Shown here piece after piece: positions 3,679 to 23,574 of a DNA stretch of 32,000 nucleotides. The position numbers and the translations under genes were made by a program. Numbering within the stretch: position 1 is the first letter of the stretch; every line of letters starts with the position of its first letter. Source of the stretch: Gemmata obscuriglobus (GTDB lineage: Bacteria > Planctomycetota > Planctomycetia > Gemmatales > Gemmataceae); contig NZ_CP042911.1 in NCBI RefSeq assembly GCF_008065095.1, forward strand, positions 8,160,001 to 8,192,000, written 5' to 3'. The notes below the pieces were generated by a model, which was not told the DNA's origin, made no database searches, and saw nothing but the letters and a program-made list of their open reading frames with translations.

Positions 3679-3726
3679 GGTGCGGAGTCCGGGCGGCTCA
3701 GAGATCGAACTGGACAGATTGACCCA

Positions 3727-5561: not shown

Positions 5562-5643
5562 CACGCGGCCCTCCCGCATTCCGGTGCGTGCCGCAATCCG
5601 GAAAGCATACGCCCGCGGTGCCAACCGTCAATTGCCGGGGGAG

Positions 5644-6123: not shown

Positions 6124-6223
6124 GGGTGGGCTTAACGCCGAATCGTGGTTGATACTGGTGTAGCCGGCTCCCCTCGCATAGGTCGGATGCAGGGAGGCAC
6201 GAACGGTCAGGCTTTGGCTGCGC

Positions 6224-10573: not shown

Positions 10574-11239
10574 ATGGGGACCGCTTCAATGACCGAACAG
10601 CAGTGGCTCGCGAGTGCCTCGCCGGTGGCGATGCTGCACCACCTCAACGCCGACGGGAACGCTCGCAAGCCGCTGCTTTATGCGATAGCGGTGTGCCTGC
10701 GTGAGCCGGAGTTGAAGACGGAAGCACTGCACAGGTGGGTCGAATTGGCCGAACGGTACCTCAGAGGCGGGGTGGAGAACTGCGACCTTGACGACGAGAG
10801 CTTCAACGCTGACGCCGAAGCGAACGTTCTCGCTCAATTTAACCAAGGCCAAACGAAAGTGCAGTACGCTGCTATCGCTGACGCTCTGGGTTGCGTCTGG
10901 ATCACCGCCAATGCCGAGTATGACCTCGACGCCGACGATCCTCCCGTCCCGCTTGAGGAACTCGAGCCGGTGCGCCGGGCCAACGCCGACCTCGTGCGCG
11001 ACATCTTCGGCAACCCGTTTCGCCCGGTGCGCTTTGCTCCGGGGTGGCGCACCGATACCGCAATCGCGATCGCGCGGCAGATGTACGAATCACGCGACTT
11101 CAGCGCGATGCCGGTTCTGGCCGACGCCCTTCAAGACGCCGGGTGTGACTGCGCGGACATACTCGCGCACTGCCGCGATCCGCAACAAGTTCACGTGCGT
11201 GGGTGCTGGGTTGCTGACCTCGTACTCGGTTACGAATGA
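10574..11239 (+). CDS. Hypothetical protein of a family I recall as common in planctomycetes/myxobacteria (N-terminal WL..ASP..ML..L, C-terminal FGNPFRPV ... LADALQDAGC ... HCR....HVRGCWVADLVLG)
   Basis: 221-aa ORF. Alternative start ATG at 10589 (MTEQQWL). I cannot name the family from sequence alone. Confidence 0.7.
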   Translation: MGTASMTEQQWLASASPVAMLHHLNADGNARKPLLYAIAVCLREPELKTEALHRWVELAERYLRGGVENCDLDDESFNADAEANVLAQFNQGQTKVQYAAIADALGCVWITANAEYDLDADDPPVPLEELEPVRRANADLVRDIFGNPFRPVRFAPGWRTDTAIAIARQMYESRDFSAMPVLADALQDAGCDCADILAHCRDPQQVHVRGCWVADLVLGYE

Positions 11240-11266
11240 GAGTAGGCTGTTCGGTGGAGGTGAACC

Positions 11267-11748
11267 ATGTCCGCACTCTCGTCCCCGCCGCCGTGGAAGC
11301 CGTCCAGCGTGGTGCCGCAGCCGCGCAAGTGACCGTCCAGGAGTTCGACCGGCTCGGGGCGCTCGGGTGCTTCGAGGGCCGGCGGGCGCTCCTCCTCGAC
11401 GGCGTCATTCTGCAGCAAGGACCGATGGACCCGCCGCACGCGAACGCGCTGGAGGTACTAACGGAAGCCGTTCGTGCGGTTTTCGAGGCCGGTTGGCGGT
11501 TCCGGGGCCAAACGCCACTGCACCTCGATCAGTTCAACAACCCGATGCCCGACCTCGCGGTCGTTGCAGGGCGACCAGGGTACAACCAAGGTCACCCAAC
11601 GGTGGCCGCGCTGGTGGTCGAGGTGTCTGACTCGACGCTGCACACGGACCTGACGGCCAAGGCGGAGTGGTACGCGACCGCCGGAATCGTCGATGGCTCA
11701 TGTGGCATCCCAGGTGGACTGTGGGCAGCAAGAGCCATGTTGGCCTGA
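11267..11748 (+). pseudogene. Uma2-family (DUF820) putative endonuclease, apparently frameshifted near the 5' end and with an aberrant 3' end
   Basis: Uma2-like core: LLDGVILQQGPMDPPHANALEVL ... PDLAVV ... AALVVEVSDSTLHTDLTAKAEWYATAGI. ATG 11267 reads MSALSSPPPWKPSSVVPQPRK, then TGA at 11330-11332. The homologous frame continues from GTG 11329 (VTVQEFDRL). After YATAGI the expected PEYW..VD continuation is missing. Confidence 0.55.
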
Positions 11749-11764
11749 AGTTAGCGCCAGCCAT

Positions 11765-12181
11765 TCACCTCTGACACCTCATGAGACCACCTTTTTTCCC
11801 CCCTTCGTACCCCTTGGGGCTGCCGCGGCGGGTCGTCTTGACCGTCTGCGCGTCCACCCGCAGGGTTTCCGGGGGCGGTGGGGCACCGGCCTCGATGCGG
11901 ACCCCCTCCCGCCGGGTGACGCGAACCTTCTCCCAGGTGCCGCCCAGCCGCCAGTCGCAGAATAACCCGTAAACGGTCTGCCAGGTCGGGACGTCGTGCG
12001 GGAGCACCCGCCATGCCCCACCGGCCCGCAGGTGGTAGAAGATGGCGTTGAGCACCTCCCGCCGATCCACGACGACCGGGTGACCGCCTTGGGGCGTGCC
12101 GGACTTGGACTTGGGAAGCAGTGGGGCCAGTCGCTCCCACTGCTCATCGGTCAGGTCGGTTGGGTACGGCTTGCGACTCAT
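11765..12181 (-). pseudogene. IS5-family transposase, N-terminal fragment only (DUF4096-type HTH region)
   Basis: Typical IS5/IS4-like N-terminus: MSRKPYPTDLTDEQWERLAPLLP...REVLNAIFYHLRAGGAWRVLPHDVPTWQTVYGLFCDWRLGGTWEKV...DAQTVKTT..GYEGGKK. Similarity stops at GGKK. No DDE catalytic domain follows. Confidence 0.75.
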
Positions 12182-12237
12182 GCAAACCCTGTACCCAATC
12201 CCACATTCCTAAGCGACATCAGTTTCAAAATACACTC
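11790..12237 (-). mobile_element. Truncated IS5-family element remnant (one end plus 5' third of the transposase gene)
   Basis: Covers the transposase fragment above. The putative terminus GAGTGTATTTTGAAACTGATG (complement of about 12217-12237) is a guess. The other end is deleted at about 11790. Confidence 0.4.
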
Positions 12238-12286
12238 TGATATCCTCGGCCCGGCGGACACCTGTCGTGCCTCTCCCGTCACAGCA

Positions 12287-13615
12287 TCACCCCAGGCGTG
12301 ACATCTTCACCGCGCCGCCGACGATTGTCGCCACCGCGCGGCCGGTCAGCTCGGTCCCGTGGAACGGCGTGTTCAGGCTCTTCGACTTCGACTCGCGCTT
12401 GTCGAACGTCCAGCGCACCTTCGGGTCGATCACCGTGACATCAGCCGGGCGGCCGGGTTGCAGCGTGCCGCGCTCTATGCCGAGCACCGCCGCCGGGTTG
12501 CAGGTCATCTTCGCCAGCATCTGCGGCCAGCTCAGGTGCCCCGGCTCGATCAGGTGCGTGACGCACAGCGGCAGGAAGGTTTCGAGCCCCAGGATGCCGT
12601 TGGGCGCCTGGTCCAGCTCGCGCTCCTTCTTCTCGGGCGCGTGCGGGGCGTGGTCGGTCGCCAGAACCGTCAGCGAGTCGTCCTTCAGGCCCTCGAGGAT
12701 CGCCTGCCGGTCCGCCTCGGTGCGCAGCGGCGGCGACATCTTGTAGTTGCTGTCGAACGTGCGCAGGCTCTCGTCGGTCAGAATGAAGTGGTGCGGGCAC
12801 GCCTCGCCGCTGATCCAGAACGACGGCTTCCCCGCCGCCTTGAGTTGCTCCGCCTTCTTGCGGCCCTGGCGGATGAGGTCCACCCCGCCGGCCGTCGAGA
12901 CGTGCAGGATGTGGACCTTCCCGCCGGTCAGCTCCGCGAGCACGATGTCGCGGTAGATCATGATGTCCTCGGCCACGCCGGGCATCCCGCGCAGCCCGAG
13001 CTGCACGCTCACGAGCCCCTCGTTCATCACGCCGCCCTGCGTGAGTTCGAGGATCTCGGCGTGGACCAGCACCGCCTTATCGAACATCTTGCAGTATTCG
13101 AGGGCGCGGCGCATGATCTCCGCCGAGTACACCGGCGCGCCGTCGTCGGTGAACGCGACCGCGCCGCCCTCCACCAGCCCGCCCAACTCGGCCAGCTCCT
13201 TCCCCGCGCGCTCCTTGGTCACAGCGCCGATCGGGAACACGTTGCAGAACCCGGCCCGCTGCGCCTGATGGATGACGAACTCCACCGACATGCGCGTGTC
13301 GAGCGCCGGTTCGGTGTTGGGCATGCACGCCACCGACGTGACCCCGCCCGCGACCGCCGCCGCCGTGCCTGTGGCGATGGTTTCGTCCTCCTCACGCCCG
13401 GGCTCGCGCAGGTGGACGTGCATGTCGATGATGCCCGGCGACACGATCAGCCCCGTGCAGTCGAGCGTCTGCTCGTCGCCCAAAAGGCCCGCGGGGCGCG
13501 GGCCGGTGCCGGCCACCTTGCCGTCGGCGAGCCAGAGGTCGGTCACCTGATCGAAGTCGCGGGACGGGTCGATGACGCGGCCGTTGCGGAGGCAGAGCGG
13601 AGCGGGAGTCGGCAT
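12287..13615 (-). CDS. pyrC: Dihydroorotase (amidohydrolase-type)
   Basis: Motifs: IIDMHVHLREPG, TSVACMPNT, VHAE, HILHVST, ATDHAPH. Start placed at ATG 13615 (MPTPAPLCLRNGRVIDP). The ORF is open to 13750, but those 45 codons look like non-coding read-through. Confidence 0.9.
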   Translation of the reverse strand: MPTPAPLCLRNGRVIDPSRDFDQVTDLWLADGKVAGTGPRPAGLLGDEQTLDCTGLIVSPGIIDMHVHLREPGREEDETIATGTAAAVAGGVTSVACMPNTEPALDTRMSVEFVIHQAQRAGFCNVFPIGAVTKERAGKELAELGGLVEGGAVAFTDDGAPVYSAEIMRRALEYCKMFDKAVLVHAEILELTQGGVMNEGLVSVQLGLRGMPGVAEDIMIYRDIVLAELTGGKVHILHVSTAGGVDLIRQGRKKAEQLKAAGKPSFWISGEACPHHFILTDESLRTFDSNYKMSPPLRTEADRQAILEGLKDDSLTVLATDHAPHAPEKKERELDQAPNGILGLETFLPLCVTHLIEPGHLSWPQMLAKMTCNPAAVLGIERGTLQPGRPADVTVIDPKVRWTFDKRESKSKSLNTPFHGTELTGRAVATIVGGAVKMSRLG

Positions 13616-13750
13616 GGGGTCGGAACCTGCGGGGGCGAAGGGTTGGCCGCGGCGCGGCGGAACGCCCGCGGCGCGAGGGCGTGCCGCGGGCGTCGTTTCG
13701 GTCAGCGTGCGGATCGGGCAGATTCGAGTTCCTGAACCTGCCGGAACCAC

Positions 13751-14212
13751 TTACCGGCTGCGGAGCCGGCTGAACAGCCCGCGGCGCGACTTGGCCGTCT
13801 CTGTGGCCGACGCCTGCACCACAACCGGGTCGGCGGTCGCGACGAAGTTTCCGAGGGTGATCTCGCTCGAGGCGGCGGCTGTGTCGGTCTTCGTGTCCAC
13901 CTTCGGCTTCGGCATCGGCATCGGGGTCGGCGCCGGGGCGGCGGTCGCCGGGGCCGGGGTGATGACCGTGCCCGGGGGCACAACGGTGGTGCCGGTGACC
14001 GGCACGGCGTAGGTCGTGGTGCCGCGGTTGCGGAGCCGGCCGAACAGCCCGCGGCGGGCGGGGGCGGCAGTGGTCACGACCGGTGCGGACTCGACGACCG
14101 GTGCGGCGGCGACGGCCGGGGCGGCCGGCGGGGTCGCTGCCGGCTTTTCCTCGGCGACAGTGAAGGGGGCGGCCAGGGCGACCAGGGCGCCGGCGAAGAC
14201 GAACCGCTTCAT
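13751..14212 (-). CDS. Small secreted Pro/Thr/Ala-rich protein with duplicated RRGLF(G/S)RLR(N/S)R motif
   Basis: ATG at 14212 preceded by GGAGGAAGCATC. Signal peptide MKRFVFAGALVALAAPFTVA. This is only the last 153 codons of the 482-aa track ORF 13751..15199. Confidence 0.65.
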   Translation of the reverse strand: MKRFVFAGALVALAAPFTVAEEKPAATPPAAPAVAAAPVVESAPVVTTAAPARRGLFGRLRNRGTTTYAVPVTGTTVVPPGTVITPAPATAAPAPTPMPMPKPKVDTKTDTAAASSEITLGNFVATADPVVVQASATETAKSRRGLFSRLRSR

Positions 14213-14401
14213 GATGCTTCCTCCTGAAACAACCGACCGCCGGACCGCCCGTCGGCCCGGCGACCGAGTCAGTCGACAGTGTAGCGACCGCGGCGGGGCG
14301 CGGGAACCTCCGCCGCCGGCACGCGGGTTGCTCTGGTTGCCGCACACCGGCCCCGGCGCGACCGAGGGCGCCCGGGCCACCGCGCTTCCGGAGAAACTGC
14401 A

Positions 14402-15286
14402 ATGAGTTCCGCCGTTCCGGGCTACCCCCCGGGGGCCGTCCCCGCCCCACACGCCGAGGCCGCCGCGGCCGCCAAGCCGGACGAAGAGATCCGCCTGTAC
14501 GGGCACAGCGACCTGTTCTACTGGTGGCCGGTTTGGGCGGTCGCGTTCCTGATGGCGGGCCTGACGTTTCTCGACGGGCACCTGATGGCCGTGGTGCCGC
14601 AGGGGACCGAGGTGCGGCAGGTGCAGACGGCGCCGGGCAGCGAGAAGACGCAGGAGGCGCTGGTGGTGCCGGAGAACAAGTCGGTACCGCCCGCCACCGC
14701 CACCAGCCCCGACGCGCAGCCGAAGCTGCGGGTGGCCGCAACGAACGCCTACGGCGTGGTGTTCGCGGGGGTGCTGATCCTGGTCATCGCGATCACCAAC
14801 CTGACGCTGCGCGGGCTGGCCTCGGTGATCGTCATCGCGCTGCTGGTCATCGCGGGGCTGACGATCGCGCTGCTGGGGTGGTGGGACAAGATTCTCATGT
14901 GGCTCGGCGGGGTGGACGTGCGGATGAACGCCGGGGGCTACCTGGCGATCGGCATCCCGGTGCTCGTGATGTGGCTGTTCGCGACGTTCATCTACGACCA
15001 CTACACGTACATCATTGTGGCCCGCGGCCAGATCCGCATCCGGCGCGAGATCGGGGACGGCGAGGTCGCCGTGGACGCCTCGGGGCTGGTGCTGGAGAAG
15101 AAGCGCGACGACCTGTTCCGGCACTGGCTGCTGGGGCTGGGCAGCGGCGACCTGCACGTGAAGACGGGCGGCCCGTCGAACCTGGACTTCAACCTGCACA
15201 ACGTGCTGTTCATCGGCTCGAAGCTGGACCGGGTGCAGAACCTGATTCGCGAGAAGGAGACCTCTCCCCAGATCGCCGGCGCGTAA
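14402..15286 (+). CDS. Hypothetical membrane protein (about 4 TM segments, C-terminal cytoplasmic PH-like/bPH-type region suspected)
   Basis: 294-aa ORF with clear hydrophobic helices (FYWWPVWAVAFLMAGLTFL; GVVFAGVLILVIAI; VIVIALLVIAGLTIALLGWW; LAIGIPVLVMWLFATFIY). Divergent from the secreted-protein gene. Confidence 0.7.
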   Translation: MSSAVPGYPPGAVPAPHAEAAAAAKPDEEIRLYGHSDLFYWWPVWAVAFLMAGLTFLDGHLMAVVPQGTEVRQVQTAPGSEKTQEALVVPENKSVPPATATSPDAQPKLRVAATNAYGVVFAGVLILVIAITNLTLRGLASVIVIALLVIAGLTIALLGWWDKILMWLGGVDVRMNAGGYLAIGIPVLVMWLFATFIYDHYTYIIVARGQIRIRREIGDGEVAVDASGLVLEKKRDDLFRHWLLGLGSGDLHVKTGGPSNLDFNLHNVLFIGSKLDRVQNLIREKETSPQIAGA

Positions 15287-15397
15287 AGCCGCTCGCCCCT
15301 GGGACTGTGGCCGCCGTATTTGTGCGACGGGATTTCAGTGCGGCCCGCTCACTCCGCGAGCGAAGCGGGCAACCGTGGTTTCGCGTTTGACGAGCCG

Positions 15398-15439
15398 CGA
15401 CCGCCGGGACGGGGATACACATCCCCGTCCCGGCGGTCG
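15398..15439. terminator. Perfect 19-bp hairpin between convergent genes (likely bidirectional terminator)
   Basis: cgaccgccgggacggggat (15398-15416), loop acac, atccccgtcccggcggtcg (15421-15439). Confidence 0.5.
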
Positions 15440-15554
15440 TAGCTCGTTACGGCACGTTAAAAAGCCCCGACCTTGTGCCGGGCAGGCAACACGGGTCATG
15501 GCCACGCGACCGCTCGCGGGGCGAGCGGACCACCTTGAAGCCAAGAACCCGGCA

Positions 15555-17579
15555 TCAAACGGCACGCCCCACGCGGGCGAGTTCCAGAATCCGGTCCTCG
15601 GAGAGTTGCTCCGTCGGGATCAGGTTCCGCGCCGCCTGGATCGCGCGCACGTCCCCCTCGCGCACCAGCCAAAACTCGCCGACCTTCTGGTCCGCGACCC
15701 GATCGGCCGCGCCGGGCTTCGACTGGAGCACCGGTTTCAGCTTTTCGATCGCCACCGGCTGCTTGACCTGTCCCACCAGCCACGTCGTGATCTGGTCCCG
15801 GCACTTGTAATCGAAGTCGCCGGGGCTCTGGGTCGCCAGGAACAGGCCGAGGCCGGCGGACCGGGCGCGCCGCAGCAGGCTCTCCATCGGCCCCTTGGTC
15901 GCCGGCTTCCCGACCGCCGGGAGGTACGCGTCCGCCTCGTCGAACAGGAACACGGCCTGCAACGCGCCGGGCGCCGGGTGCCGCTGCCGCCACTGGTCGA
16001 GCGCCAGCAGCAGTTGGGACACCCAGAAGTCGATCGTAGCCGCGTCCCCGAGCGCGCCGGTGTTGAGCACCGTGAGCCGGGTGCGTCCGGGCGCCGCGAA
16101 CGCCCCGCGCCCGAGCAGCGCGTCGATGTCGAGCGCTTCCGGGGCCTCGAACAGCCGCCGGTGCCGGGCGCCGAGCGAGTACAGATCCTGCCGGAGCGTC
16201 CGGAAGTGTCGCTCCTCGTACTGGCCGTCGAACTCCATGAGGAGCGCATCGTCCTGATCGCTGACGAGCTTCTGCAGCGTGTCCACGGTGACCGCGCGTC
16301 CGGCCGCGACCAACACCTCAATGGCCTTTTGCAGGATCACCAGTTTGGGGTCGATGCCGCGGCCCCGGTACCCCATCATCTGGGCCAGTCCGGCGGCGGC
16401 GTACTGGGCGTGTTGCTCGCGCTCGCTGGCCGGGGCGGTTGCCAGCCCGGGCGGGGCGATCGAAATGGCCAGCGGGCGCCCCTCGTTCGTCCCGGGCGTG
16501 TAGAGCTGAACGTCGATCGCCGCGCGCAGCCGTGCCCGGCGGGCCGCGCGGTCGGCGTCCGGTTCGGGCGCGGCCCACGCGGCGGGGTCGGCGTACTGGG
16601 CCAGGTCGCCCTTGCGGTCGAGCAGCACGGCCGGCACCCCGGCCAGGAGCAGTTCTTCAATGATCGCGAGCGCTGCGGTCGTTTTCCCGCTCCCCGACCC
16701 GCCGAGGAACGCCGCGTGCCGGCACAGGCTCTTGGGCTCCAGTTCGACGGGCGCCGGGAGCGCGCCGCGGGTGACGGCGAACCGGATCGCTCCCGCCGCC
16801 TTCGCCGGCGCCGCGGGCGGCGCGACCGGTGCGGGGACGGCCGCCGGCGGCGCCGCCTTGGCGAGGCCCGCGGGCGGCAGCGGCGGCGCGGGCGGCTGCG
16901 GCTTCGGGGCCGCCGCTTCGAGTCGGTCCAGATCGAGCACCCGGCGAAGGGAGGGCAGGTTGGCGAGCGGCCGGACCTGCTGGCGCCAGGCGCCGAACCC
17001 GTCCGCCTTCTGGTGCTGTTGGACGAACTGGCGGAACGCGACCATGGCCCGCCAGTCGGCGTTCTCGACGACAACCTTTCGGTGCTTACCGACCGGCGCG
17101 CACAGCTTCCCGAGGCGCTTGGCGACTTCGGCTTGTGGCGATTTCGGGAAGTCGGTCGAGCGGACGAACACCGACGGCAACTCGCCGCACTGCTTGACCG
17201 TCTCCTCAATCTGGTTCTTCAGCCCGCTACCTTGTGCGCCCCGGTCGCAAATTGCAACAAGCACCTTGTCGGCTGCGTTACCGCTTTGAACCTCAACCTG
17301 GACGAACCGGCTGTCCGGGTCCGGGCTGAATACGACTCCGTTCGGCATCTCATTGGACGTGGCCCCGATGGCCCACCCCAGCAGCTCGGCGAGCTTCGTC
17401 TCGTCCACGATCGGCGGTTTAACCTTGGGAAGTAGTTCTGCCCACAACTGGCTGAAATCCGGGCGCGGTGGTGGCGGAGGAGGGGGAGGGCTGACGGGTC
17501 CGACGACCGCGATGCCACCGCCTCGGACGCACTGTTCGTGATGCTTGCGGAAGTGGTCAAGGACTTCGCGTGTGCGCAT
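15555..17579 (-). CDS. C-terminal 674 codons of an IS-split double ATPase: middle domain plus HerA/FtsK/VirB4-type P-loop ATPase
   Basis: Walker A FLGGSGSGKTT, Walker B AVFLFDEADAYL, LFLATQSPGDFD motif typical of DUF87/HerA-like ATPases. The apparent ATG at 17579 lies 4 nt from the IS3 end and is in frame with the upstream fragment once the IS is removed. Confidence 0.85.
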   Translation of the reverse strand: MRTREVLDHFRKHHEQCVRGGGIAVVGPVSPPPPPPPPRPDFSQLWAELLPKVKPPIVDETKLAELLGWAIGATSNEMPNGVVFSPDPDSRFVQVEVQSGNAADKVLVAICDRGAQGSGLKNQIEETVKQCGELPSVFVRSTDFPKSPQAEVAKRLGKLCAPVGKHRKVVVENADWRAMVAFRQFVQQHQKADGFGAWRQQVRPLANLPSLRRVLDLDRLEAAAPKPQPPAPPLPPAGLAKAAPPAAVPAPVAPPAAPAKAAGAIRFAVTRGALPAPVELEPKSLCRHAAFLGGSGSGKTTAALAIIEELLLAGVPAVLLDRKGDLAQYADPAAWAAPEPDADRAARRARLRAAIDVQLYTPGTNEGRPLAISIAPPGLATAPASEREQHAQYAAAGLAQMMGYRGRGIDPKLVILQKAIEVLVAAGRAVTVDTLQKLVSDQDDALLMEFDGQYEERHFRTLRQDLYSLGARHRRLFEAPEALDIDALLGRGAFAAPGRTRLTVLNTGALGDAATIDFWVSQLLLALDQWRQRHPAPGALQAVFLFDEADAYLPAVGKPATKGPMESLLRRARSAGLGLFLATQSPGDFDYKCRDQITTWLVGQVKQPVAIEKLKPVLQSKPGAADRVADQKVGEFWLVREGDVRAIQAARNLIPTEQLSEDRILELARVGRAV

Positions 17580-17627
17580 CCCGTACAGTGGACCCCATTG
17601 TCTAGACCAAAAAGTTGCTATCCTTCG

Positions 17628-18494
17628 CTACTGTTTCGTCGGGGCCTTCGTGGCTCCGACGCCATACACCTGAGCCGGGGTGCGGTAGTCCAGGGACTGG
17701 TGTAACCGCTCGGTGTTGTAGAACCCGAAGTACGCCCGGAGCCCACTCTCCAGGGCCGGCACCGACTCGTAACCCTTGAGGTACACGTCCTCGTACTTGA
17801 CGCTCCGCCACAGGCGCTCCACGAACACGTTGTCCAGGCACCGGCCCCGCCCGTCCATGCTCACCGCGACCCCGGCCCGCTCCAATCGCCCGACCCACGC
17901 GGCGGCCGTGAACTGGACTCCCTGGTCCGTGTTGAACACCTCCGGCTTGCCCCGGCCCAAGGCCTCCTCCAGCATGTCCTGGCAGAATGACCCGTCCAAC
18001 GTGTTGGACAGTCGCCAGGCCACCACGTACCGGCTGAACCAGTCCATCGTTGCGGCCAGGTACATGAACCCGGTGGGCATCGGGATGTACGTGATGTCCG
18101 TGCTCCACACCTGATGGACCCGGTCGATGGCCACGCCCCGCAACAGGTACGGGTACACCTTGTGCCCGGACCCGACCGACAGCTTGGGCTTGGGGTACAG
18201 GGCCTCCAACCCCATGATCCGCAACAGCCGCTGCACCCGCTTGCGGTTCACCTCGTGGCCCTGGGTGCCCAGCCACGCGGCCAGGCGCCGGCTCCCGTAG
18301 AACGGGCACGTCGTGTACTGCTCGTCGATCAACCGCATCAGCGTCAGGTTCTCCGCGCTCTCCGGGGTCGGCTCGTAGTACACCGTCGAGCGGTTCAATC
18401 CGATCAGCTCGCACTGGCGCCGGACGCTCAGCTCCGGGTGCTCGGCCTCGATCCGGGCACGCTTGGCCTCAGCCGAGGGCGGCCGATTTTTTTT
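17628..18494 (-). CDS. IS3-family transposase OrfB (DDE/rve integrase core), expressed as OrfAB by -1 frameshift
   Basis: Typical rve domain: VWSTDITYIPM ... FNTDQGVQFTA ... MDGRGRCLDNVFVERLWRSVKYEDVYL ... FYNTERLHQSLDYRTP. The frame stays open upstream to the A-run, reading KKNRPPSAEAKRARIEAEHPELSVRRQCELIGLNRSTVYY. Confidence 0.9.
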   Translation of the reverse strand, partial: KKNRPPSAEAKRARIEAEHPELSVRRQCELIGLNRSTVYYEPTPESAENLTLMRLIDEQYTTCPFYGSRRLAAWLGTQGHEVNRKRVQRLLRIMGLEALYPKPKLSVGSGHKVYPYLLRGVAIDRVHQVWSTDITYIPMPTGFMYLAATMDWFSRYVVAWRLSNTLDGSFCQDMLEEALGRGKPEVFNTDQGVQFTAAAWVGRLERAGVAVSMDGRGRCLDNVFVERLWRSVKYEDVYLKGYESVPALESGLRAYFGFYNTERLHQSLDYRTPAQVYGVGATKAPTKQ

Positions 18495-18756
18495 TCACCC
18501 AGTCGAGTTCCACCTTGAGGCGGCCGATCTGCTCGTACAACTCGGTCGTCTTGTCTTCCGGGGGGCCGGTGCCCTTCGCCCCCGAGGCGAACACGGCCTC
18601 GGCCCCGGTGAGCAACTGCTTCTTCCACCCATGAATCAGGGTCGGGTGGACGCCGTGCTGACTCGCCAGTTCGTTGATGGTCTTGTCGCCCTTGAGGGCC
18701 GCCAGCGCGACCTGGGCCTTGAACGCCGCCGAGTGACTCTTCCGCTTGCCCGCCAT
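18469..18756 (-). CDS. IS3-family transposase OrfA (HTH)
   Basis: 95 aa: MAGKRKSHSAAFKAQVALAALKGDKTINELASQHGVHPTLIHGWKKQLL ... LYEQIGRLKVELDWVKKK (HTH plus leucine zipper typical of IS3 OrfA). Confidence 0.9.
   Translation of the reverse strand: MAGKRKSHSAAFKAQVALAALKGDKTINELASQHGVHPTLIHGWKKQLLTGAEAVFASGAKGTGPPEDKTTELYEQIGRLKVELDWVKKKSAALG
18487..18495 (-). promoter_or_regulatory. Programmed -1 ribosomal frameshift site (A9 run) of the IS3 transposase
   Basis: The minus strand reads GTG AAA AAA AAA TCG near the end of orfA. The -1 frame continues into OrfB without a stop. Confidence 0.7.
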
Positions 18757-18787
18757 GGGTTCCCCTTTCCTGGGCCTCCGGTATAGC

Positions 18788-19993
18788 TTAACCGGCGGTC
18801 CAGTTTTCGGGGTCCACTATACCGGCCAGCCGCGCGACATCCGCGGTGGTGTACGGGGCGAGGGGGTTGGTAGGATCTTGCTCGACCCCAACAGCGTTGA
18901 AGAAGACTTCTAGCCGCCGCGCCAGCATTGCGCGGACTTCGTCGCCTGTGCGCACTTCGGTGAGACGGATCGGCTCCGGATCATGTTCGAGTCGGTCGAG
19001 TTTGGGACGCGGAAGGTATCCCTTTTCTCTGGAACTGTCGAACAACTCCCTCAAACACCCGATCACCACCACTGCGTTCGGCAAGGCGTCGGCAACGTCG
19101 ATCAGCGTGTTGATCGCGCACCGGAACAGTTCGCCCGGCTCGGAGTCACCTTTCGCGAGTTCAATCATCTCGTCCAACTGATCGACCAGCAGCACAAACG
19201 CCGCCGAATGCACGGCGCGCATCAGCCGCCCGAGGCCGACGATCGTCTTGAGCGGCATCTCGGGACCGGGTCGAGGAACCAAGTCGCCGAGCATCTCACG
19301 GTCGTACTTCGCCAGATCCTCGCACCGCAGCCAGCTCAGCGCCCGCGGGCGAATTCGGCCGTCGTTCGGGAGGAGGAAAAGGACCGCGCGCAACAGGTTC
19401 AGATCGATTCCCGCGAACCGCTCGTCCTGGGCCGCAACATCAGCGAACCGGAACACGATCCGTGCCGTCTCGTCCGGCTCGAGCCAGTCGCTGAGTAACT
19501 TGTCACGGTCGGCGTCGGCGATCCCGATCGCGTCGAGCAACCCGCGAGCCAGACGCATGAGCCCGGTCGTCGGGTCGCCCGGCTTGTACGGCTGCTCGAG
19601 CGAATCGAGGAGGTAACTGAGGATGTATCGCGAGTAGTTGTCGGATCGGCTGAGCATCTGTAGATAGCCGCAATACCCAGCACCGCTCTCGTGGGCCGCA
19701 GTGCGGAACGCGCGCATCAGATGCGTCTTGCCGCAGCCCGCTTCGCCGAGCAGGAGCAGGCTCTTCCCGTGCGGCGGTAGATCAGCGTCAGACGCGCGGG
19801 CCAGCAGTCGGTCGAAGGCCGCACGGGCCTCCGGGTGTACGGCACCCACGTCGAAGGGGTCCGTGGTCCAGAGCTGGCTGCCGAACACGACCCCACTAAA
19901 CACCTCGGGGCCGTCGGGCGAGCAGTACGCCGCGACTCGCGGATCGGTCGCCGCCGGCACGGACGCGGGCAGAACAGAAGCGGTGGGCGACAT
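18788..19993 (-). CDS. N-terminal 391 codons of the IS-split double ATPase: AAA/ORC-like P-loop NTPase domain (last 10 codons and the stop are supplied by the IS3 end)
   Basis: Walker A LLLLGEAGCGKTHL, Walker B AFVLLVDQLDE. The tail IVDPENWTAG-stop is encoded by the IS terminal repeat. The ATG lies 3 nt after the upstream gene stop. Confidence 0.85.
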   Translation of the reverse strand: MSPTASVLPASVPAATDPRVAAYCSPDGPEVFSGVVFGSQLWTTDPFDVGAVHPEARAAFDRLLARASDADLPPHGKSLLLLGEAGCGKTHLMRAFRTAAHESGAGYCGYLQMLSRSDNYSRYILSYLLDSLEQPYKPGDPTTGLMRLARGLLDAIGIADADRDKLLSDWLEPDETARIVFRFADVAAQDERFAGIDLNLLRAVLFLLPNDGRIRPRALSWLRCEDLAKYDREMLGDLVPRPGPEMPLKTIVGLGRLMRAVHSAAFVLLVDQLDEMIELAKGDSEPGELFRCAINTLIDVADALPNAVVVIGCLRELFDSSREKGYLPRPKLDRLEHDPEPIRLTEVRTGDEVRAMLARRLEVFFNAVGVEQDPTNPLAPYTTADVARLAGIVDPENWTAG

Positions 19994-19996
19994 GGC

Positions 19997-21037
19997 TTAG
20001 CTCCCCTCGATCAGGATGAAGTGAAAGGTGGCGGTCAGGTAGGTCGTCTCGGACGCCCGCACGTCGGCCGGGTCCATGAGTTGCACGAGGTCGGCACGGC
20101 TTAGCGTCAGCAGACGCTCGCGGTTCGCTTCGATCAATTTGGCTTTGAAGCCATCGAGGCCGAGTGCGTGGAACGGTCGGTCGTTGCGCAGTTGTTCCCA
20201 GACGTGGCTGATGAACACCTTGTACCCGCCGAACCGTCCAGTCGGGCACCGTCGTGCAGCGGCCTTCACCGTATTCGCGAACGCCTCCAGGTCGAACGGC
20301 TCCGGGTCCGCAGGCCGGCTCGAGGGCTCCGGGTGCGGGTCCGCAGCTTTCGGGCGCGGCTCGGTGTGCGATCCGTCGGCCCATCCACGCAACGCGACCG
20401 CGCGGAGGCCGTTCGTGCCGGTCCCGGGCGCGTCCAAAAGCACCCGCGGAACGGTGTTGGTCATGTCACGCTCGTCCGGAGGGACCTCGCGGCCCATCTT
20501 TCGCGCGAGAAGAAGCGGGACGAGTGTTTTAAGCTCCGTGTGGTCGGCGAACCCGAGCGCCTGACAGGCGATGGCCTCGAACACCTTTTTGAGGGTGTCG
20601 CCGGTCGCAACCGGAAGCCCGAGTTCCCGCTTCAGCAGTAGCGCGGCGAGTTTCTCGCCCTTCAACGCGTCTGGGGTTGTGCCCAGCGCCCGCGGCACGA
20701 GGAATTTCGCCTTTACGGTGCCCCAGTTCGCCCGGGGCGGCAACTGCTCCACGCCCAAGAACTGCAACGCGCGGACGCGGCCGGCGTCGGTGGCGCGCTG
20801 GCCCTTCGCGGTCACGTACCCCTCCGCCCGGAGTCCCGTCAGCGCTTGCGTCACGTCGTCGGCCGTGGGGGCGCTGCGGGAGAAGAAGACCGCCAGATCC
20901 TTCCGCAGATCACTTTCGCCGACGCTCTTCGACGCGGGTAGCAGTCGCAGCAAGATCAGGTCGGCGAGGCCCGGCGCCGCAGCCGCCGAGGGGTCGGTTG
21001 GGGATGGGGGCGGGGCCAGTTGGGCGGTCGCACTCAT
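19997..21037 (-). CDS. Hypothetical protein B of the ATPase operon (346 aa; N-terminal winged-helix-like segment, conserved-looking C-terminal block)
   Basis: ATG at 21037 overlaps the TGA of the upstream gene (ATGA). MSATAQLAPPPSPTD ... LADLILLRLLPAS ... ALTGLRAEGYVTAKGQ ... GGYKVFISHVWEQL ... FKAKLIEANRERLLTLSRADL. In the track it is hidden inside the chimeric 753-aa ORF. Confidence 0.75.
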   Translation of the reverse strand: MSATAQLAPPPSPTDPSAAAAPGLADLILLRLLPASKSVGESDLRKDLAVFFSRSAPTADDVTQALTGLRAEGYVTAKGQRATDAGRVRALQFLGVEQLPPRANWGTVKAKFLVPRALGTTPDALKGEKLAALLLKRELGLPVATGDTLKKVFEAIACQALGFADHTELKTLVPLLLARKMGREVPPDERDMTNTVPRVLLDAPGTGTNGLRAVALRGWADGSHTEPRPKAADPHPEPSSRPADPEPFDLEAFANTVKAAARRCPTGRFGGYKVFISHVWEQLRNDRPFHALGLDGFKAKLIEANRERLLTLSRADLVQLMDPADVRASETTYLTATFHFILIEGS

Positions 21038-22258
21038 GCGGCACCTGTGGGTTGGGCGGGGCCGCGGCGCTCGGCCACGACCTCCAGAATCGTGTTCAGA
21101 ATCCGTTCGAGGTCGGTCACCACGTCCTCCGCCAGGAACCGCAGCACACGGTACCCGTGCTTCTGGTACAGGTGGTCCTTGCGCCGGTCCCGGCGGTACT
21201 GCTCGGGGTTCAGGTGGTAGAACGCGCCGTCCACCTCCACCGCCAGCTTCAGGCCGGCGGTGGAGGTGGACGGCTTCGGCCGTCTGGTTCCCGTGCTGGA
21301 ACGGGAGCGGTTGGTTCGGGCGGAACAGGCCGGCGGTCTCCGGCAGCGATTCCAACTGCCCGAACAGAAACTCCTCGTGGACGCTGCGGAAGTCGGACGC
21401 GAGGTCCGCCGGGGCGGGATTCCGGACGACCCGCGCCGCGCCCACGAACGCCGACGCCACGTCGTCCGCCACCCCGTCGTTCACGAGCCGGGCCACCGTC
21501 GCGACCGGCGGGTCGAGGCCGGCCGCGCGGAGCCGCGCTTCCAGATCGTTCCCGGCGACGCCGCGAACTTCGATGAACCCCTCGCTCGCCAGCGCGGCGG
21601 TCCGCGTCCCCTCGAATTGCGCCGCGAACTGGTCGTACTCGTCGCGGGTAACGGCCGCCCCGACCGGCACGCGCGGTTCGGTGACGGCGACGGCCTCAAG
21701 GAGCCGCAGTGCCGCCGGCAACGCGCCGGGGGCCGGGGTGAGGAGCAGCGCCGGCCACAGCTCCGGCGGGTACAGATCCGCGACCGCGCGCACCACCCGG
21801 CCGGGGTCGCCGGACGCACCCGCCACCTCGCGCACGAACCGCGGCGGATCGGTCGCAGCCCCTTGCGCCCGGTCGGACAGGAGGAGCCGCGCGGCGGTTG
21901 CAGCCGGCGCCCGCGGGTCGATCGGCAGGCCGCGCCACAGGACGTCCAGGTCGTAGAGAGTCGGGCGGGCCGGCAGGGTGACGGCGGCCGCCCCGGGGCC
22001 GGCCCAGCGCTCAACACACCGGACCGCGAGAGCAACGGCGTCCGTCGCGCCGAGTGCGACCGCGACCCACGCAGTCAGCACCTCGTCGGGTTCGGCCGTG
22101 GCCGCTACGGCATGTGGCCGCGGTAAGCTGGCAACCCAGAGGCTCCACGCGCGCCGGCCGAGCCCGACCGGGCCGACCAGAACCGCGATTGTGGGAACGC
22201 CCTGCGCGACGCGGGCGTGGTGCCGCAGGAACAATTCGGCGGTCGGTACGGTACTCAT
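21034..22258 (-). pseudogene. Protein A of the ATPase operon: N-domain with degenerate P-loop plus C-terminal DUF559 (Vsr-like PD-(D/E)xK endonuclease fold). Frameshifted at about 21250-21260
   Basis: Frame 1 (from ATG 22258): IAVLVGPVGLGRR ... EEFLFGQLESLPETAGLFRPNQPLPFQHGNQTAEAVHLHRR. Frame 2 continues LKLAVEVDGAFYHLNPEQYRRDRRKDHLYQKHGYRVLRFLAEDVVTDLERILNTILEV, ending at the TGA at 21034-21036. The two halves form one DUF559-type domain only if one nucleotide is removed near cgccggcctgaag. Confidence 0.7.
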
Positions 22259-22659
22259 GGGCGAGAAGACGTTTGTGTTGAAGAAACGTCAGTCTGCCAC
22301 AGCGCCGATCGGAACACGAGCGAAATTTTGAAACGAACGGCTATTTGTTCGCCTTCGGGTGAAATGAGCGCGAACGGGCATCATCGGAATGCCTTCACCG
22401 GAGGCGGAGTTCCGCCGTTTCAAGGTCGCGAATTTTGACGAGATCGAGACGCGCGAACGTTTGCCGCTGACAGCAGCAGGCAAACGCTCGGCGAGCCGTG
22501 AGGCGAACCGCCCGCGTCAGCGTGGCGGGAGGGAGTGCGAAACACGGGATTGACTACTGTGGCCTGGATTGGAGCCTCTTTGCGGTCCGGTTGCTGGTGC
22601 CCGTTTTTGGCTTGTGCCTTTGTGGCACAGACATAGCCAGCCGGCTCGGGGTCCAGGCG

Positions 22660-23574
22660 TCACACCGCCCGACTCAGCTCGCTCAGCACCGCCATCCGCA
22701 CCGCGAGGCCGTTGGTCACCTGGTCGAGGATCGCGGAGTGCGGGCCGTCGGCAACCTCCGGGGTGATCTCCACCCCGCGGTTGATCGGCCCCGGGGCCAG
22801 GAGCAGCGCGCCGGGCTTTGCCCGCTTCATGCGGTCGGCGTCCACCCCGAACAGCAGCCGGTACTCGCGGATCGACGGGAACAGCCCGCTCCGCTGCCGC
22901 TCGAACTGCACCCGCAGCAGGTTCAGCACGTCGCACCGCGGGATCACGTCGTCGAGCTTGTCCGCGATCTCCACCCCGAACCGGGCCACCTCCTGGGGGA
23001 CCAGCGTGGTCGGGCCGCACACGATCACCTTCGCGCCGAGCGTCGTGAGCCCGTAAATGTTGCTCCGCGCGACGCGGCTGTGCGCGATGTCGCCCACCAA
23101 CCCGACCGTGAGCCCCGCGACGCGGCCCAATTTCTTGCGGATGGTGAGGATGTCGAGCAGCGCCTGCGTCGGGTGCTCGTGCGCCCCGTCGCCGGCGTTC
23201 ACCACCCGCACGTGCGGCATCAGGTGCTTCGCCAGCACGTGCGGCGCGCCCGGCGACGAGTGCCGCACGACCACCATGTCGATGCCCATCGCCTCGATGT
23301 TCTTGGCGGTGTCGATGAACGACTCGCCCTTCGACGTGCTCGACCCGCTCGGGGAGAAATCGAGCACGTCGGCCCCGAGCCGCCGGGCCGCCAGCCCGAA
23401 GCTAACCCGGGTCCGCGTGGACGGCTCGTAGAAGAGGTTCACAACGACCTTGCCCTTCAGGTCGTCGCGCTTCGGCACGTCGCCGACCCCGACGCGGTCG
23501 AGCCGCTCCGCGGCGTCGAGAATGCGGGTCAGTTCCGCGGACGAAACCCCTTCCAGCCCCAGCAAGTGCTTCAT
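22660..23574 (-). CDS. pyrB: Aspartate carbamoyltransferase catalytic subunit
   Basis: 304 aa. Motifs: [45 protein letters not shown]. Confidence 0.95.

What the first reader, a model, noticed from the sequence alone, without database searches (positions are those of the whole stretch)
15555..22258. Unclassifiable three-gene operon: degenerate-P-loop/DUF559 nuclease-fold protein + wHTH-like protein + 1065-aa AAA-HerA double ATPase (candidate novel defence-type system)
Three co-directional minus-strand genes have coupled junctions. The stop of A overlaps the start of B (ATGA at 21034-21037). The B stop and C start are 3 nt apart (19993-19999). A has a ~330-aa N-domain whose P-loop-like motif is degenerate (VLVGPVGLGRR; Lys-Ser/Thr replaced by Arg-Arg), fused to a DUF559/Vsr-like endonuclease-fold C-terminus (LKLAVEVDGAFYH...RDRRKDHLYQKHGYRVLRF). 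B (346 aa) has a winged-helix-like N-terminus and a distinctive C-terminal block (GGYKVFISHVWEQL...FKAKLIEANRERLLTLSRADL) that I cannot assign to any family. C, reconstructed across the IS, combines three parts. The first is an ORC/AAA-like NTPase (GEAGCGKT; VLLVDQLDE). Then come Pro-rich linkers, including a P8 run and PKPQPPAPPLPPAGLAKAAPPAAVPAPVAPPAAPA. The last is a HerA/FtsK/VirB4-type ATPase (GGSGSGKT; VFLFDEAD; LATQSPGD). A nuclease fold paired with a HerA-type ATPase is the design logic of several anti-phage systems, such as the HerA-partnered effector systems. This particular domain combination and gene order does not correspond to any named system I know. Two of the three genes are damaged (frameshift, IS), as often happens to costly accessory systems. 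A local GC trough (about 53% over 22281-22400 by hand count, against a much higher surrounding GC) lies just upstream of gene A.
Basis: partly seen in the sequence, partly recalled or inferred. Interest (0 to 1): 0.85.

Follow-up and report, generated by a model that had tools for sequence, protein, structure and literature searches.

The report
Broken three-gene HerA/nuclease defence-like cassette
Between pyrB and pyrC of Gemmata obscuriglobus lies a compact three-gene cassette (nuclease, DNA-binding protein, double ATPase) that is conserved across several bacterial phyla and looks like an untested anti-foreign-DNA system, but this copy is dead, disrupted by an insertion sequence and a hairpin-templated frameshift.

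Summary
Three co-directional minus-strand genes with coupled junctions lie at 15555-22258. Gene A is frameshifted and gene C is split by an IS3-family element. All quoted motifs and the GC trough are present.

The trio is a real module. In 78 of 78 loci with room upstream, a B homologue sits directly before a C homologue. These loci span Planctomycetota, Myxococcota, Cyanobacteria, Nitrosomonas, Thiocystis, Hyphomicrobiaceae and Verrucomicrobium. A precedes B in 38 of the 80 genome-scan loci, and flanks differ even among Gemmata.

- **A:** an inactivated P-loop (AAA+/STAND-like) domain plus a DUF559/Vsr-fold endonuclease.
- **B:** a winged helix, a helical domain and a second winged-helix-like domain.
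- **C:** an AAA_16/ORC-like ATPase, a restriction-endonuclease (REase)-like middle domain and a HerA/FtsK ATPase.

No PADLOC or NCBIfam system matches. The only notable hit is to the MADS mad8 ATPase. The domain logic matches the computationally predicted 'HerA/FtsK capture systems' (Rakesh, Aravind and Krishnan, NAR 2024), which have not been tested experimentally.

The most likely function is capture and cutting of invading DNA. Defence is inferred, not shown, and neighbouring genes are mostly ordinary. I rate this a new variant of a predicted kind, of moderate interest. The A frameshift is a single quasi-palindrome template-switch mutation that also removes the catalytic Asp.

The parts
21034..22258 (-). 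Gene A, a pseudogene. Intact homologues are 398-415 aa, with an inactivated P-loop (AAA+/STAND-like) N-domain, a helical linker and a C-terminal DUF559/Vsr-fold endonuclease.
   Evidence: tblastn with the JC717 protein splits into two frames at 21272-21291. Pfam DUF559 scores E 1.8e-9 and 37.8 bits against a cutoff of 20.6. The AF2 model of homologue P0241 has pLDDT 84.4. Foldseek gives 3hrl with TMt 0.80 and prob 1.00 for the C-terminus, and weak AAA+/STAND hits for the N-domain: HslU, CED-4, Cdc6/Orc1, RdrA and MuB, E 0.02-1.
21556..22258 (-). A N-terminal alpha/beta domain with degenerate Walker A (GPVGLGRRAW) and no Walker B acid (PALLLTPP).
   Evidence: The model has five parallel strands. 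The Lys-Ser/Thr and the acidic Walker B residue are missing in all 29 full-length homologues from four phyla.
21226..21274 (.). A 22-nt inverted repeat (arms 21226-21247 and 21253-21274) at the frameshift site. It is the footprint of a quasi-palindrome template-switch mutation.
   Evidence: (I5) and 90: the arms are 21/22 complementary; all five differences from JC717, including the +1 and GAC->GTC at the catalytic Asp, make the left arm the complement of the right arm.
19997..21037 (-). Gene B (346 aa, intact). It has an N-terminal winged helix (about residues 24-95), an all-helical middle domain (105-216), a disordered linker, and a C-terminal alpha/beta winged-helix-like domain (250-342).
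   Evidence: AF2 pLDDT is 88.6. Foldseek hits to PadR/MarR/linker-histone wHTH have prob up to 0.99 but E >= 0.03. There are no Pfam, PADLOC or NCBIfam hits. The family has 2,481 cluster representatives at E <= 1e-3, nearly all 320-360 aa.
18822..19993 (-). Gene C, 5' part (residues 1-391): an AAA_16/ORC-STAND-like ATPase with intact Walker A (GEAGCGKT) and Walker B (VLLVDQLDE).
   Evidence: Pfam hits are AAA_16 at 1.8e-7, AAA_22, TniB, NACHT, nSTAND1 and ORC-CDC6-like, all weak. The PDB profile search gives only P-loop-level hits, including DnaA-related, DnaC and ORC5 chains. GxxGxGKTHL and DQxE are invariant across phyla.
17584..18821 (-). IS3-family insertion sequence: orfA 18469-18756, orfB 17628-18398, an A9 slippery run at about 18481-18489, 13-bp terminal inverted repeats, and a CGG target duplication at 17581-17583 and 18822-18824.
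   Evidence: Pfam hits are HTH_Tnp_1, and rve, rve_3 and HTH_21. Ends were read from the sequence. Removal restores the C frame.
15555..17580 (-). Gene C, 3' part (residues 391-1065): a Pro-rich linker, a REase-like middle domain, a second Pro/Ala-rich linker and a HerA/FtsK (DUF853/YjgR-like) ATPase.
   Evidence: Pfam HerA_C scores 2.8e-9 and DUF87 3.1e-7. PADLOC mad8 scores 1.8e-15. The best PDB hit is the HerA-like helicase YjgR, 11kk. Homologues are 1047-1078 aa and collinear.
16923..17444 (-). C middle domain (about residues 437-610). Its conserved pattern is W..E...(D/E)...C-N/D/Q-K/R...Q...R, which resembles an inactivated PD-(D/E)xK nuclease core.
   Evidence: Cross-phylum alignment A5 has invariant W, E, C, Q, R, G, F and W. 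There is no Pfam or PDB sequence match. The fold was not modelled, so this assignment is an inference.
15555..16760 (-). C HerA/FtsK-type ATPase domain (GGSGSGKT, VFLFDEAD, LATQSPGD).
   Evidence: The motifs are invariant in alignment A1.
15466..15482 (-). Terminator-like hairpin plus T-run, 73 nt downstream of the C stop.
   Evidence: This is a consensus match only. The region had fewer such sites than shuffles (3 against 5.1).
22259..22420 (.). Low-GC intergenic stretch upstream of A. It is a likely promoter region, but no sigma-70 consensus was found.
   Evidence: GC is 53-57%. No promoter-like match was found.

Best explanation
A-B-C is a self-contained, horizontally mobile three-gene module. 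Its most likely function is to intercept and cut invading DNA. It is a variant of the predicted 'HerA/FtsK capture' class of anti-invader systems.

Inferred mechanism:
1. B (two winged-helix domains) and the ORC/STAND-like AAA+ module of C recognise or load onto target DNA.
2. ATP binding by the AAA+ module drives assembly.
3. The C-terminal HerA/FtsK ring of C pumps the DNA.
4. A docks through its catalytically dead P-loop domain onto the AAA+ assembly of C and nicks or cleaves the DNA with its Vsr/DUF559-type endonuclease.

What is shown: the gene linkage, the domain identities, the inactive P-loop of A, and conserved nuclease catalytic residues in intact homologues.

What is inferred: the defence role, the order of events and the A-C docking.

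The copy in this window is non-functional. C is split by an IS3-family element. A lost its catalytic Asp and its reading frame in one quasi-palindrome template-switch mutation. Only B is intact.
For: Linkage and spread:
- B lies directly upstream of C in 78 of 78 loci with room upstream, across at least five phyla.
- A precedes B in 38 of 80 genome-scan loci, in Planctomycetota, Myxococcota, Cyanobacteria, Nitrosomonas and Thiocystis.
- The coupled junctions are kept in homologues: a 4-nt A/B overlap and a 3-nt B/C gap.
- Flanks differ even among Gemmata: pyrB, MarR/RND or kinase genes.
- Several genomes carry two copies: Cystobacter, Minicystis, Chondromyces and a Polyangiaceae MAG.
- The phyletic pattern is patchy. 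The B family has 2,481 representatives at 50% identity, of uniform length.

Domains:
- A has a DUF559/Vsr fold. ExD, ExDG and RRDRRKD are conserved in 29 homologues.
- The A N-domain is AAA+-like and lacks Walker A and B.
- B has a winged-helix (wHTH) domain.
- C has AAA_16 and HerA domains with intact Walker motifs.

Context and literature:
- The same domain logic was independently predicted to be anti-invader (PMC10853773; PMC12839542).
- Defence genes occasionally sit next to the module: Septu PtuA at E 7.5e-165 in L014, and EAD1, WD40, AriA and PDC-S03 hits among 123 neighbours.
- Decay by an IS and by an active-site mutation fits a costly accessory system.
Against: - There is no experimental evidence for any member of this family.
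- There is no PADLOC or NCBIfam system match.
- The window context is purely housekeeping. Most neighbours elsewhere are ordinary genes such as AcrB, UvrA-like, cytochrome and SDR genes.
- No copies were found on plasmids or phages in the collections searched.
- About 27 loci, including all Hyphomicrobiaceae, have B-C with no nuclease gene. Cutting therefore cannot be the universal output.
- The module is present in nearly every Gemmataceae genome sampled at 50-87% identity. That could also fit a lineage-wide cellular function.
- The A N-domain fold matches are weak (E 0.02-1). Profile-profile comparison of A with C is not significant.
Confidence: 0.55

Rival explanations
1. A cellular DNA-maintenance machine, analogous to HerA-NurA end resection or FtsK-type segregation. 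It would have been recruited in large-genome, developmentally complex bacteria, with A acting as a repair nickase of the Vsr kind.
For: - The HerA/FtsK and Vsr-fold domains are also used in repair and segregation (established knowledge).
- Contexts are housekeeping in the window and in many loci.
- The module is near-universal among sampled Gemmataceae and well conserved.
- The best PDB relative of the ATPase is YjgR, a chromosomal E. coli protein of unknown role.
Against: - The distribution across phyla is patchy, and flanks differ between close relatives.
- Some genomes carry two divergent copies.
- Two of three genes are knocked out in a viable strain.
- There is no NurA or Mre11/Rad50 partner.
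Confidence: 0.17
2. A domesticated or still selfish mobile-element module. An ORC-like initiator and an FtsK-like DNA pump would serve transfer or replication, with a DUF559 homing-type endonuclease, and the cassette would move as a unit.
For: - The compact cassette is found at different chromosomal sites in related genomes.
- DUF559-fold enzymes include homing endonucleases: I-Bth0305I by Foldseek and PADLOC 'HEase' at 9.5e-6.
- The NAR 2024 paper notes that such neighbourhoods show features of both mobile elements and defence systems.
Against: - No integrase, relaxase or replication genes, no nearby tRNA and no flanking repeats surround the cassette in the window.
- The cassette is absent from the plasmid and phage collections.
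- The A P-loop is inactive in all homologues.
Confidence: 0.15
3. B-C is a nuclease-independent sensor and motor core, for example an abortive-infection or signalling NTPase switch. A would be only one of several optional add-ons.
For: - B-C occurs alone in about 27 loci, including the whole Hyphomicrobiaceae clade.
- Other co-directional genes occupy the A position in some loci: EAD5-CHAT in L031, PARG in L052, and YcaO-TfuA in Polyangiaceae.
Against: - The alternative upstream genes may belong to neighbouring systems. No EAD5 partner domain was found in the B or C of L031.
- Several apparent upstream ORFs are spurious antisense frames.
- Where A is present its junction to B is translationally coupled.
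Confidence: 0.1
4. It is a member of an already named system (MADS, DndFGH/SspFGH, BREX, SIR2-HerA or DUF4297-HerA).
For: The C ATPase domain hits PADLOC mad8 at 1.8e-15 and HerA models at 1e-5 to 1e-6.
Against: - MADS is an eight-gene operon with a methylase, a specificity subunit and a kinase, and mad6-8 are mandatory. None of these is present here.
- A and B hit no PADLOC or NCBIfam system model.
- There is no SIR2, DUF4297, Dnd or PglZ gene in any of the operons examined.
Confidence: 0.03

Closest known systems
'HerA/FtsK capture systems' coupled to Orc/CDC6-family AAA+ ATPases (Rakesh, Aravind and Krishnan, Nucleic Acids Res 2024, PMC10853773; computational prediction)
   Same: The parts list is the same: an Orc/CDC6-type AAA+ ATPase, a HerA/FtsK ATPase, a wHTH protein and an active restriction-endonuclease-fold nuclease, spread over one or several polypeptides. 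There may also be an inactive restriction-endonuclease (REase) domain after the AAA+ core. Gene neighbourhoods are mobile. The proposed role is the same: localise to invader DNA, pump it and cut it.
   Different: - Here the nuclease is a DUF559/Vsr-type domain fused to a dead P-loop domain on a separate protein (A). The text I could read does not describe that architecture.
- AAA+ and HerA are fused in one 1065-aa chain through Pro-rich linkers.
- The inactive-REase status of the C middle domain is untested.
- I could not check whether these proteins are already in that paper's supplementary lists.
DndFGH / DptFGH restriction module
   Same: A HerA/FtsK-type motor (in DndH) is combined with multi-wHTH DNA-binding proteins (DndG) and a nuclease, and acts on foreign DNA.
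   Different: There are no DndF, DndG or DndH homologues by PADLOC. There is no SWI2/SNF2-like domain and no kinase domain. No associated phosphorothioate or methylation module is present.
SIR2-HerA and DUF4297-HerA anti-phage systems
   Same: A HerA-family hexameric ATPase is partnered with an effector enzyme encoded in the same operon.
   Different: The effector here is DUF559 with an inactive AAA+ domain, not SIR2 or DUF4297. The HerA domain belongs to the DUF853/YjgR-like group and is fused to a second ATPase. A third gene (B) is obligatory. PADLOC HerA hits are confined to the P-loop.
BREX core (BrxB inactive STAND plus BrxC ORC/Cdc6-like ATPase plus BrxA HTH protein)
   Same: An active ORC/Cdc6-like ATPase is paired with an inactive STAND/AAA+ domain lacking Walker motifs and with a small multi-HTH DNA-binding protein (PMC12839542).
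   Different: There is no PglX methyltransferase and no PglZ. HerA is present. No BREX models hit A, B or C.
MADS (methylation-associated defence system, Pseudomonas aeruginosa)
   Same: The C HerA-like ATPase domain resembles Mad8 (PADLOC E 1.8e-15).
   Different: MADS has eight genes, including a methylase, a specificity subunit and a kinase. None is present here, and A and B have no MADS counterpart.

Membership tests
HerA/FtsK capture systems with Orc/CDC6 AAA+ (NAR 2024 prediction) | [quoted passage not shown] | tested here: inconclusive
   The C N-terminus has intact Walker A and B. It hits AAA_16 at E 1.8e-7 (32.2 bits against a cutoff of 32.6), plus TniB, DnaA/Hda, NACHT, nSTAND1 and ORC-CDC6-like weakly. 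PDB profile hits are limited to the P-loop and include DnaA-related, DnaC and ORC5 chains. This is compatible with the ORC/STAND assemblage, but the clade is not resolved because no structure model of C was made.
HerA/FtsK capture systems with Orc/CDC6 AAA+ (NAR 2024 prediction) | An inactive REase domain inserted between the AAA+ core and the C-terminal wHTH of the Orc/CDC6 module | tested here: inconclusive
   The C middle domain shows an E...(D/E)...C-N-K...Q pattern, with the usual acidic residue replaced by an invariant Cys. No Pfam or PDB sequence match was found. The fold was not modelled.
HerA/FtsK capture systems with Orc/CDC6 AAA+ (NAR 2024 prediction) | An active REase-fold nuclease in the operon | tested here: met
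   A has a DUF559/Vsr fold, and catalytic residues are conserved in 29 homologues. They are destroyed in this window. Whether DUF559 is one of the two REase families meant by the authors could not be checked.
HerA/FtsK capture systems with Orc/CDC6 AAA+ (NAR 2024 prediction) | A HerA/FtsK ATPase domain | tested here: met
   Pfam HerA_C scores 36.6 bits (cutoff 22) and DUF87 31.1 bits (cutoff 23.2). PDB hits include YjgR and HerA chains.
HerA/FtsK capture systems with Orc/CDC6 AAA+ (NAR 2024 prediction) | A wHTH domain or protein | tested here: met
   In the AF2 model of B (pLDDT 88.6), the N-terminal domain aligns to PadR, MarR and H1 winged helices with prob up to 0.99, at weak E-values.
MADS | Operon with Mad6, Mad7 and Mad8 (mandatory), plus a methyltransferase, a specificity subunit and a kinase | tested here: not met
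   Only a mad8-like ATPase hit was found. No other mad models hit A, B or C. The operon has three genes.
SIR2-HerA / DUF4297-HerA | HerA partnered with a SIR2 or DUF4297 effector | tested here: not met
   There is no SIR2 or DUF4297 hit in A or B, or in neighbouring genes of five annotated loci.
DndFGH / SspFGH | DndF-, DndG- and DndH-like proteins | tested here: not met
   No Dnd or Ssp model appears among the PADLOC hits for A, B or C at E <= 0.1.
HerA-NurA repair module | A NurA nuclease (and usually Mre11/Rad50) next to HerA | tested here: not met
   No NurA, Mre11 or Rad50 domain occurs in the operon or its neighbours. NCBIfam HerA_Thermprot scores only E 0.0057.
DUF559 / Vsr-like endonuclease fold (C-terminus of A) | Pfam DUF559 above the gathering score, a Vsr-like fold, and conserved D / ExD / K residues | tested here: met
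   Pfam scores 37.8 bits against 20.6. Foldseek gives 3hrl with TMt 0.80 and 3r3p with 0.77. Residues are conserved in homologues. In the window the Asp is Val and the frame is broken.
IS3 family insertion sequence | orfA (HTH) and orfB (DDE rve) joined by a -1 slippery site, terminal inverted repeats, and a 3-bp target duplication | tested here: met
   HTH_Tnp_1 and rve/rve_3/HTH_21 hits. An A9 run lies at the orfA end, the 13-bp inverted repeats match 12/13, and the duplication is CGG.

The most novel reading that the evidence does not exclude
B-C is a previously unstudied two-gene DNA-capture engine found across bacterial phyla. One polypeptide couples an ORC/STAND-like recognition switch, through a dead nuclease domain, to a HerA/FtsK pump. 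An inactive-AAA+ adaptor domain recruits an exchangeable effector: the DUF559 nuclease in most systems, none or others elsewhere. If so, it would be a new immune architecture, enriched in large-genome, developmentally complex bacteria (planctomycetes, myxobacteria, filamentous cyanobacteria). It would be mechanistically distinct from SIR2-HerA, Dnd and BREX.
Probability: 0.3. Interest if true: 0.7.

Novelty: new variant of a known kind. Interest (0 to 1): 0.5.

Why it matters
If the intact versions defend against phages or plasmids, this would be a widespread system that current defence-finding tools do not call. The B family alone has about 2,500 clusters at 50% identity.

It would give an experimental handle on the predicted but untested 'HerA/FtsK capture' class. 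It would allow a test of how an ORC-like switch, a HerA pump and a nuclease carried by a dead ATPase domain work together.

It also occurs in lineages whose immunity is almost unexplored: Planctomycetota, Myxococcota and Hyphomicrobium.

The dead copy in G. obscuriglobus is a clean natural example of two inactivation routes. One is IS insertion. The other is a quasi-palindrome template-switch mutation that hits the nuclease active site.

Tried and rejected
1. **MADS membership.** Rejected after reading the MADS description. Only the ATPase domain is shared.
2. **Homology between the A dead P-loop domain and the C AAA+ domain.** hhalign gave probability 0.3% and E 0.19. It aligns the Walker-B regions suggestively, but the result is not significant.
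3. **Sequence-based assignment of the C middle domain.** Pfam and PDB profile searches gave nothing.
4. **Sequence-based assignment of the C N-domain to a clade.** PDB hits are limited to the P-loop.
5. **Plasmid or phage carriage.** tblastn with the Gemmata and Nitrosomonas C proteins found no real homologue in 72,556 plasmids or 50,697 phages. Only distant HerA-domain hits appeared.
6. **Defence-island test.** Among 123 nearest-neighbour ORFs from 41 loci, a few clear defence genes appear: Septu PtuA, and PDC-S03, AriA-like and EAD1/WD40 conflict proteins. Most neighbours are ordinary, and no family recurs across taxa. The result is suggestive only, and no background control was run.
7. **Alternative effectors in the A position** (EAD5-CHAT, PARG, YcaO-TfuA). 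Not established. They may belong to neighbouring systems, and some 'upstream ORFs' were antisense artefacts of high-GC DNA.
8. **Integration signatures.** There is no tRNA next to the cassette and there are no flanking direct repeats. The ARAGORN 'tRNA-???' at 21242-21335 is the hairpin artefact.
9. **Supplementary tables of the NAR 2024 paper.** They are not held as text, so I could not check whether this family is already listed.
10. **Literature searches.** Searches for YjgR/DUF853 and for HerA with DUF559 found nothing relevant.

Full report
**Source and anatomy.** The window is Gemmata obscuriglobus chromosome: the C-terminal fragment of gene C is 100% identical to a protein on a 9,032,617-bp contig. 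On the minus strand, gene A starts at 22258, B runs 21037..19997, and C runs 19993..15555 with an interruption. They are ATGA at 21037-21034, and a 3-nt gap between the B stop (19997-19999) and the C ATG (19993). The flanking genes are aspartate carbamoyltransferase (22660-23574) and dihydroorotase (12287-13750). The rest of the window is housekeeping: pgi, polyprenyl synthase, trigger factor, an SDF transporter and an acyl-activating enzyme. GC falls to 53-54% over 22220-22379, just upstream of A.

**The two lesions.** tblastn with the proteins of Gemmata sp. JC717 shows that C aligns over residues 1-392 to 19993..18818 and over residues 389-1068 to 17588..15558.
- Reading the ends gives an IS3-family element at 17584-18821. 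Its terminal repeats are TATAGTGGACCCC and TACAGTGGACCCC, its duplication is CGG, its orfA is HTH_Tnp_1, and its orfB is rve.
- Excising the IS restores a 1065-aa frame.
- A aligns in two frames that meet at 21272-21291.
- At DNA level the only divergent patch from JC717 is a 12-nt cluster: GAC->GTC, CTC->CAC and CT-GG->CTCCA, which includes a +1 insertion.
- That patch is the left arm of a 22-nt inverted repeat whose arms are 21/22 complementary.
- Every change makes the left arm the complement of the right arm. JC717 has only a quasi-palindrome there.

The simplest reading is one templated quasi-palindrome-correction event. It removed the invariant catalytic Asp and shifted the frame at the same time. 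The mechanism rests on established knowledge of template-switch mutagenesis. Both lesions occur in two independent NCBI assemblies and in assemblies of 20 or more sequencing runs of the strain.

**Is the trio a module?** Homologues of C are numerous, 1047-1078 aa long and collinear.
- In Gemmata JC717, the Gemmataceae isolate CJuql4 (LR594584.1), Urbifossiella, G. palustris and a metagenomic Gemmataceae contig, an A-like DUF559 gene and a B-like gene precede C with the same tight junctions. The flanks differ in each.
- A scan of one genome per GTDB species returned 247 relatives, of which 80 were fetched. They come from Planctomycetota, Myxococcota, Cyanobacteria, Nitrosomonas, Thiocystis, Hyphomicrobiaceae, Devosia and Verrucomicrobium. 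Four genomes carry two copies.
- HMMs built from A and B found B immediately upstream of C in 78 loci. The five misses are loci truncated upstream.
- A was found in 41 loci, 38 of them from the genome scan.
- About 27 loci with room upstream have B-C only. These include all Hyphomicrobiaceae and most Polyangiaceae.
- The B family has 2,481 representatives at 50% identity (1,724 at E <= 1e-10), nearly all 320-360 aa.

**What the proteins are: A.** Pfam DUF559 is above threshold.
- An AF2 model of the 90%-identical JC673 protein has pLDDT 84.4.
- Its C-terminus superposes on DUF559 and homing-endonuclease structures, with TMt 0.77-0.80 and probability 1.00.
- Its N-terminal five-stranded alpha/beta domain draws only weak hits, but they are consistently AAA+/STAND: HslU, CED-4, Cdc6/Orc1, RdrA, MuB and DnaA.
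- The Walker A Lys-Ser/Thr and the Walker B acid are absent in all 29 full-length homologues. The nuclease motifs are invariant.

**What the proteins are: B.** B has no family hit. Its AF2 model (pLDDT 88.6) shows an N-terminal winged helix, a seven-helix middle domain and a C-terminal alpha/beta domain. That last domain has the helix-strand-helix-helix-strand order of a winged helix and conserved basic residues on its long helix.

**What the proteins are: C.**
- The N-terminal part is an AAA_16/ORC-STAND-like ATPase with intact motifs.
- The conserved middle domain has a pattern that looks like a nuclease core with its acidic residue replaced by an invariant Cys. It is unassignable by sequence.
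- The C-terminal part is a HerA/FtsK ATPase closest to the DUF853/YjgR group.

**Comparison with known systems.** PADLOC and NCBIfam give no system-level match. The only notable hit is C to mad8, at 1.8e-15. MADS is an eight-gene methylation system, so membership fails. Dnd, BREX, SIR2-HerA, DUF4297-HerA and HerA-NurA memberships also fail on their defining partners.

The closest description is computational. Rakesh, Aravind and Krishnan (NAR 2024) report mobile neighbourhoods that combine an Orc/CDC6 ATPase, an inactive REase inserted after the AAA+ core, an active REase, a HerA/FtsK domain and a wHTH, in varied single- or multi-protein arrangements. They propose that these capture and restrict invading DNA. 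A 2026 BREX survey restates the theme and also describes inactive STAND domains paired with ORC-like ATPases.

The present system meets three of the five listed features: a HerA/FtsK domain, a wHTH and an active REase. The Orc/CDC6 clade assignment and the inactive-REase domain remain inconclusive. It adds a DUF559 nuclease carried on a dead P-loop domain.

**Function.** I favour an anti-invader capture-and-cut mechanism, at about 0.55.
- For: a compact cassette found at different sites in related genomes, a patchy multi-phylum spread, paralogous copies, an effector nuclease, occasional defence neighbours such as Septu PtuA, and decay in this strain.
- Against: mostly ordinary neighbours, no plasmid or phage copies, many nuclease-less B-C loci, and no experiment.
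- The rivals are a cellular DNA-maintenance role, a domesticated mobile-element module, and a nuclease-independent B-C core. They are listed with what would refute each.

**Verdict.** It is a new variant of a predicted, untested kind of system, and in this genome it is a pseudogenised copy. Interest is moderate.

Noticed in passing
window 21226-21274: The A frameshift is the footprint of a quasi-palindrome template-switch mutation. Five clustered changes relative to Gemmata JC717, including the +1, convert an imperfect inverted repeat into a 21/22 perfect one. They also change the catalytic Asp codon GAC to GTC.
   Followed up: yes
window 21242-21335: ARAGORN reports a 'tRNA-???' with a two-base anticodon on the plus strand. 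It overlaps the hairpin inside gene A and is almost certainly an artefact.
   Followed up: partly
window 17584-18821: An IS3-family element with an A9 run at the orfA/orfB overlap (a likely -1 frameshift site), 13-bp terminal repeats and a CGG duplication. Its copy number in the genome was not examined.
   Followed up: partly
window 15390-15447: A 27-nt inverted repeat, 93% complementary with a 4-nt loop. It lies between the end of C (15555) and the convergent 294-aa membrane-protein gene (14402-15286), and may be a bidirectional terminator.
   Followed up: no
window 13751-14290 (minus strand): A small Pro/Ala/Thr-rich protein with a hydrophobic, signal-peptide-like N-terminus carries a repeated C-terminal-type motif, RRGLF(G/S)RLR(N/S)R. 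The motif is encoded by a 32-nt direct repeat (13755-13786 and 14025-14056, 94% identical). Function unknown.
   Followed up: no
window 12287-13750 and 22660-23574: pyrC and pyrB lie on the same strand but are separated by about 8.9 kb. This stretch holds the cassette plus two small genes. In Gemmata JC717 the cassette also follows pyrB, but the downstream genes differ. In G. palustris the cassette is elsewhere.
   Followed up: partly
L035, L041, L042, L043, L050 (Minicystis, Polyangiaceae, Sorangium), about 500-7000 and 11200-15000: In Polyangiaceae, B-C is preceded by YcaO and TfuA genes and flanked on both sides by roughly 1230-aa Pkinase-AAA_16-TPR proteins. Whether these belong to the same system is unknown.
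   Followed up: partly
L031:5836-6999: In one Minicystis rosea copy, an EAD5-CHAT (caspase-like) protein is encoded 33 nt upstream of B, in the position usually held by A. No EAD5 partner domain was found in the B or C of that locus.
   Followed up: partly
L062:6294-10760: In a Polyangiaceae MAG, most of B (profile positions 2-265) lies in the same 1489-aa open frame as C. This may be a B-C fusion or a frameshift or assembly error.
   Followed up: no
L057-L083 (Hyphomicrobiaceae), about 5600-6450: The Hyphomicrobium clade has B-C only. A divergently oriented CAP (cysteine-rich secretory protein) family gene and a polysaccharide-flippase gene lie upstream in the Hyphomicrobium loci examined by Pfam (L066, L072), which may reflect vertical inheritance there.
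   Followed up: partly
L014:3204-4553 and L048:12219-13544: A Septu PtuA ATPase gene (PADLOC E 7.5e-165 for the L014 gene) lies within about 1 kb of the cassette in an Archangium genome. Its BLAST relative lies in the same position in a Kofleriaceae genome.
   Followed up: partly
window 564-1667 (minus strand): A 367-aa leucine-rich-repeat protein lies at the edge of the window.
   Followed up: no
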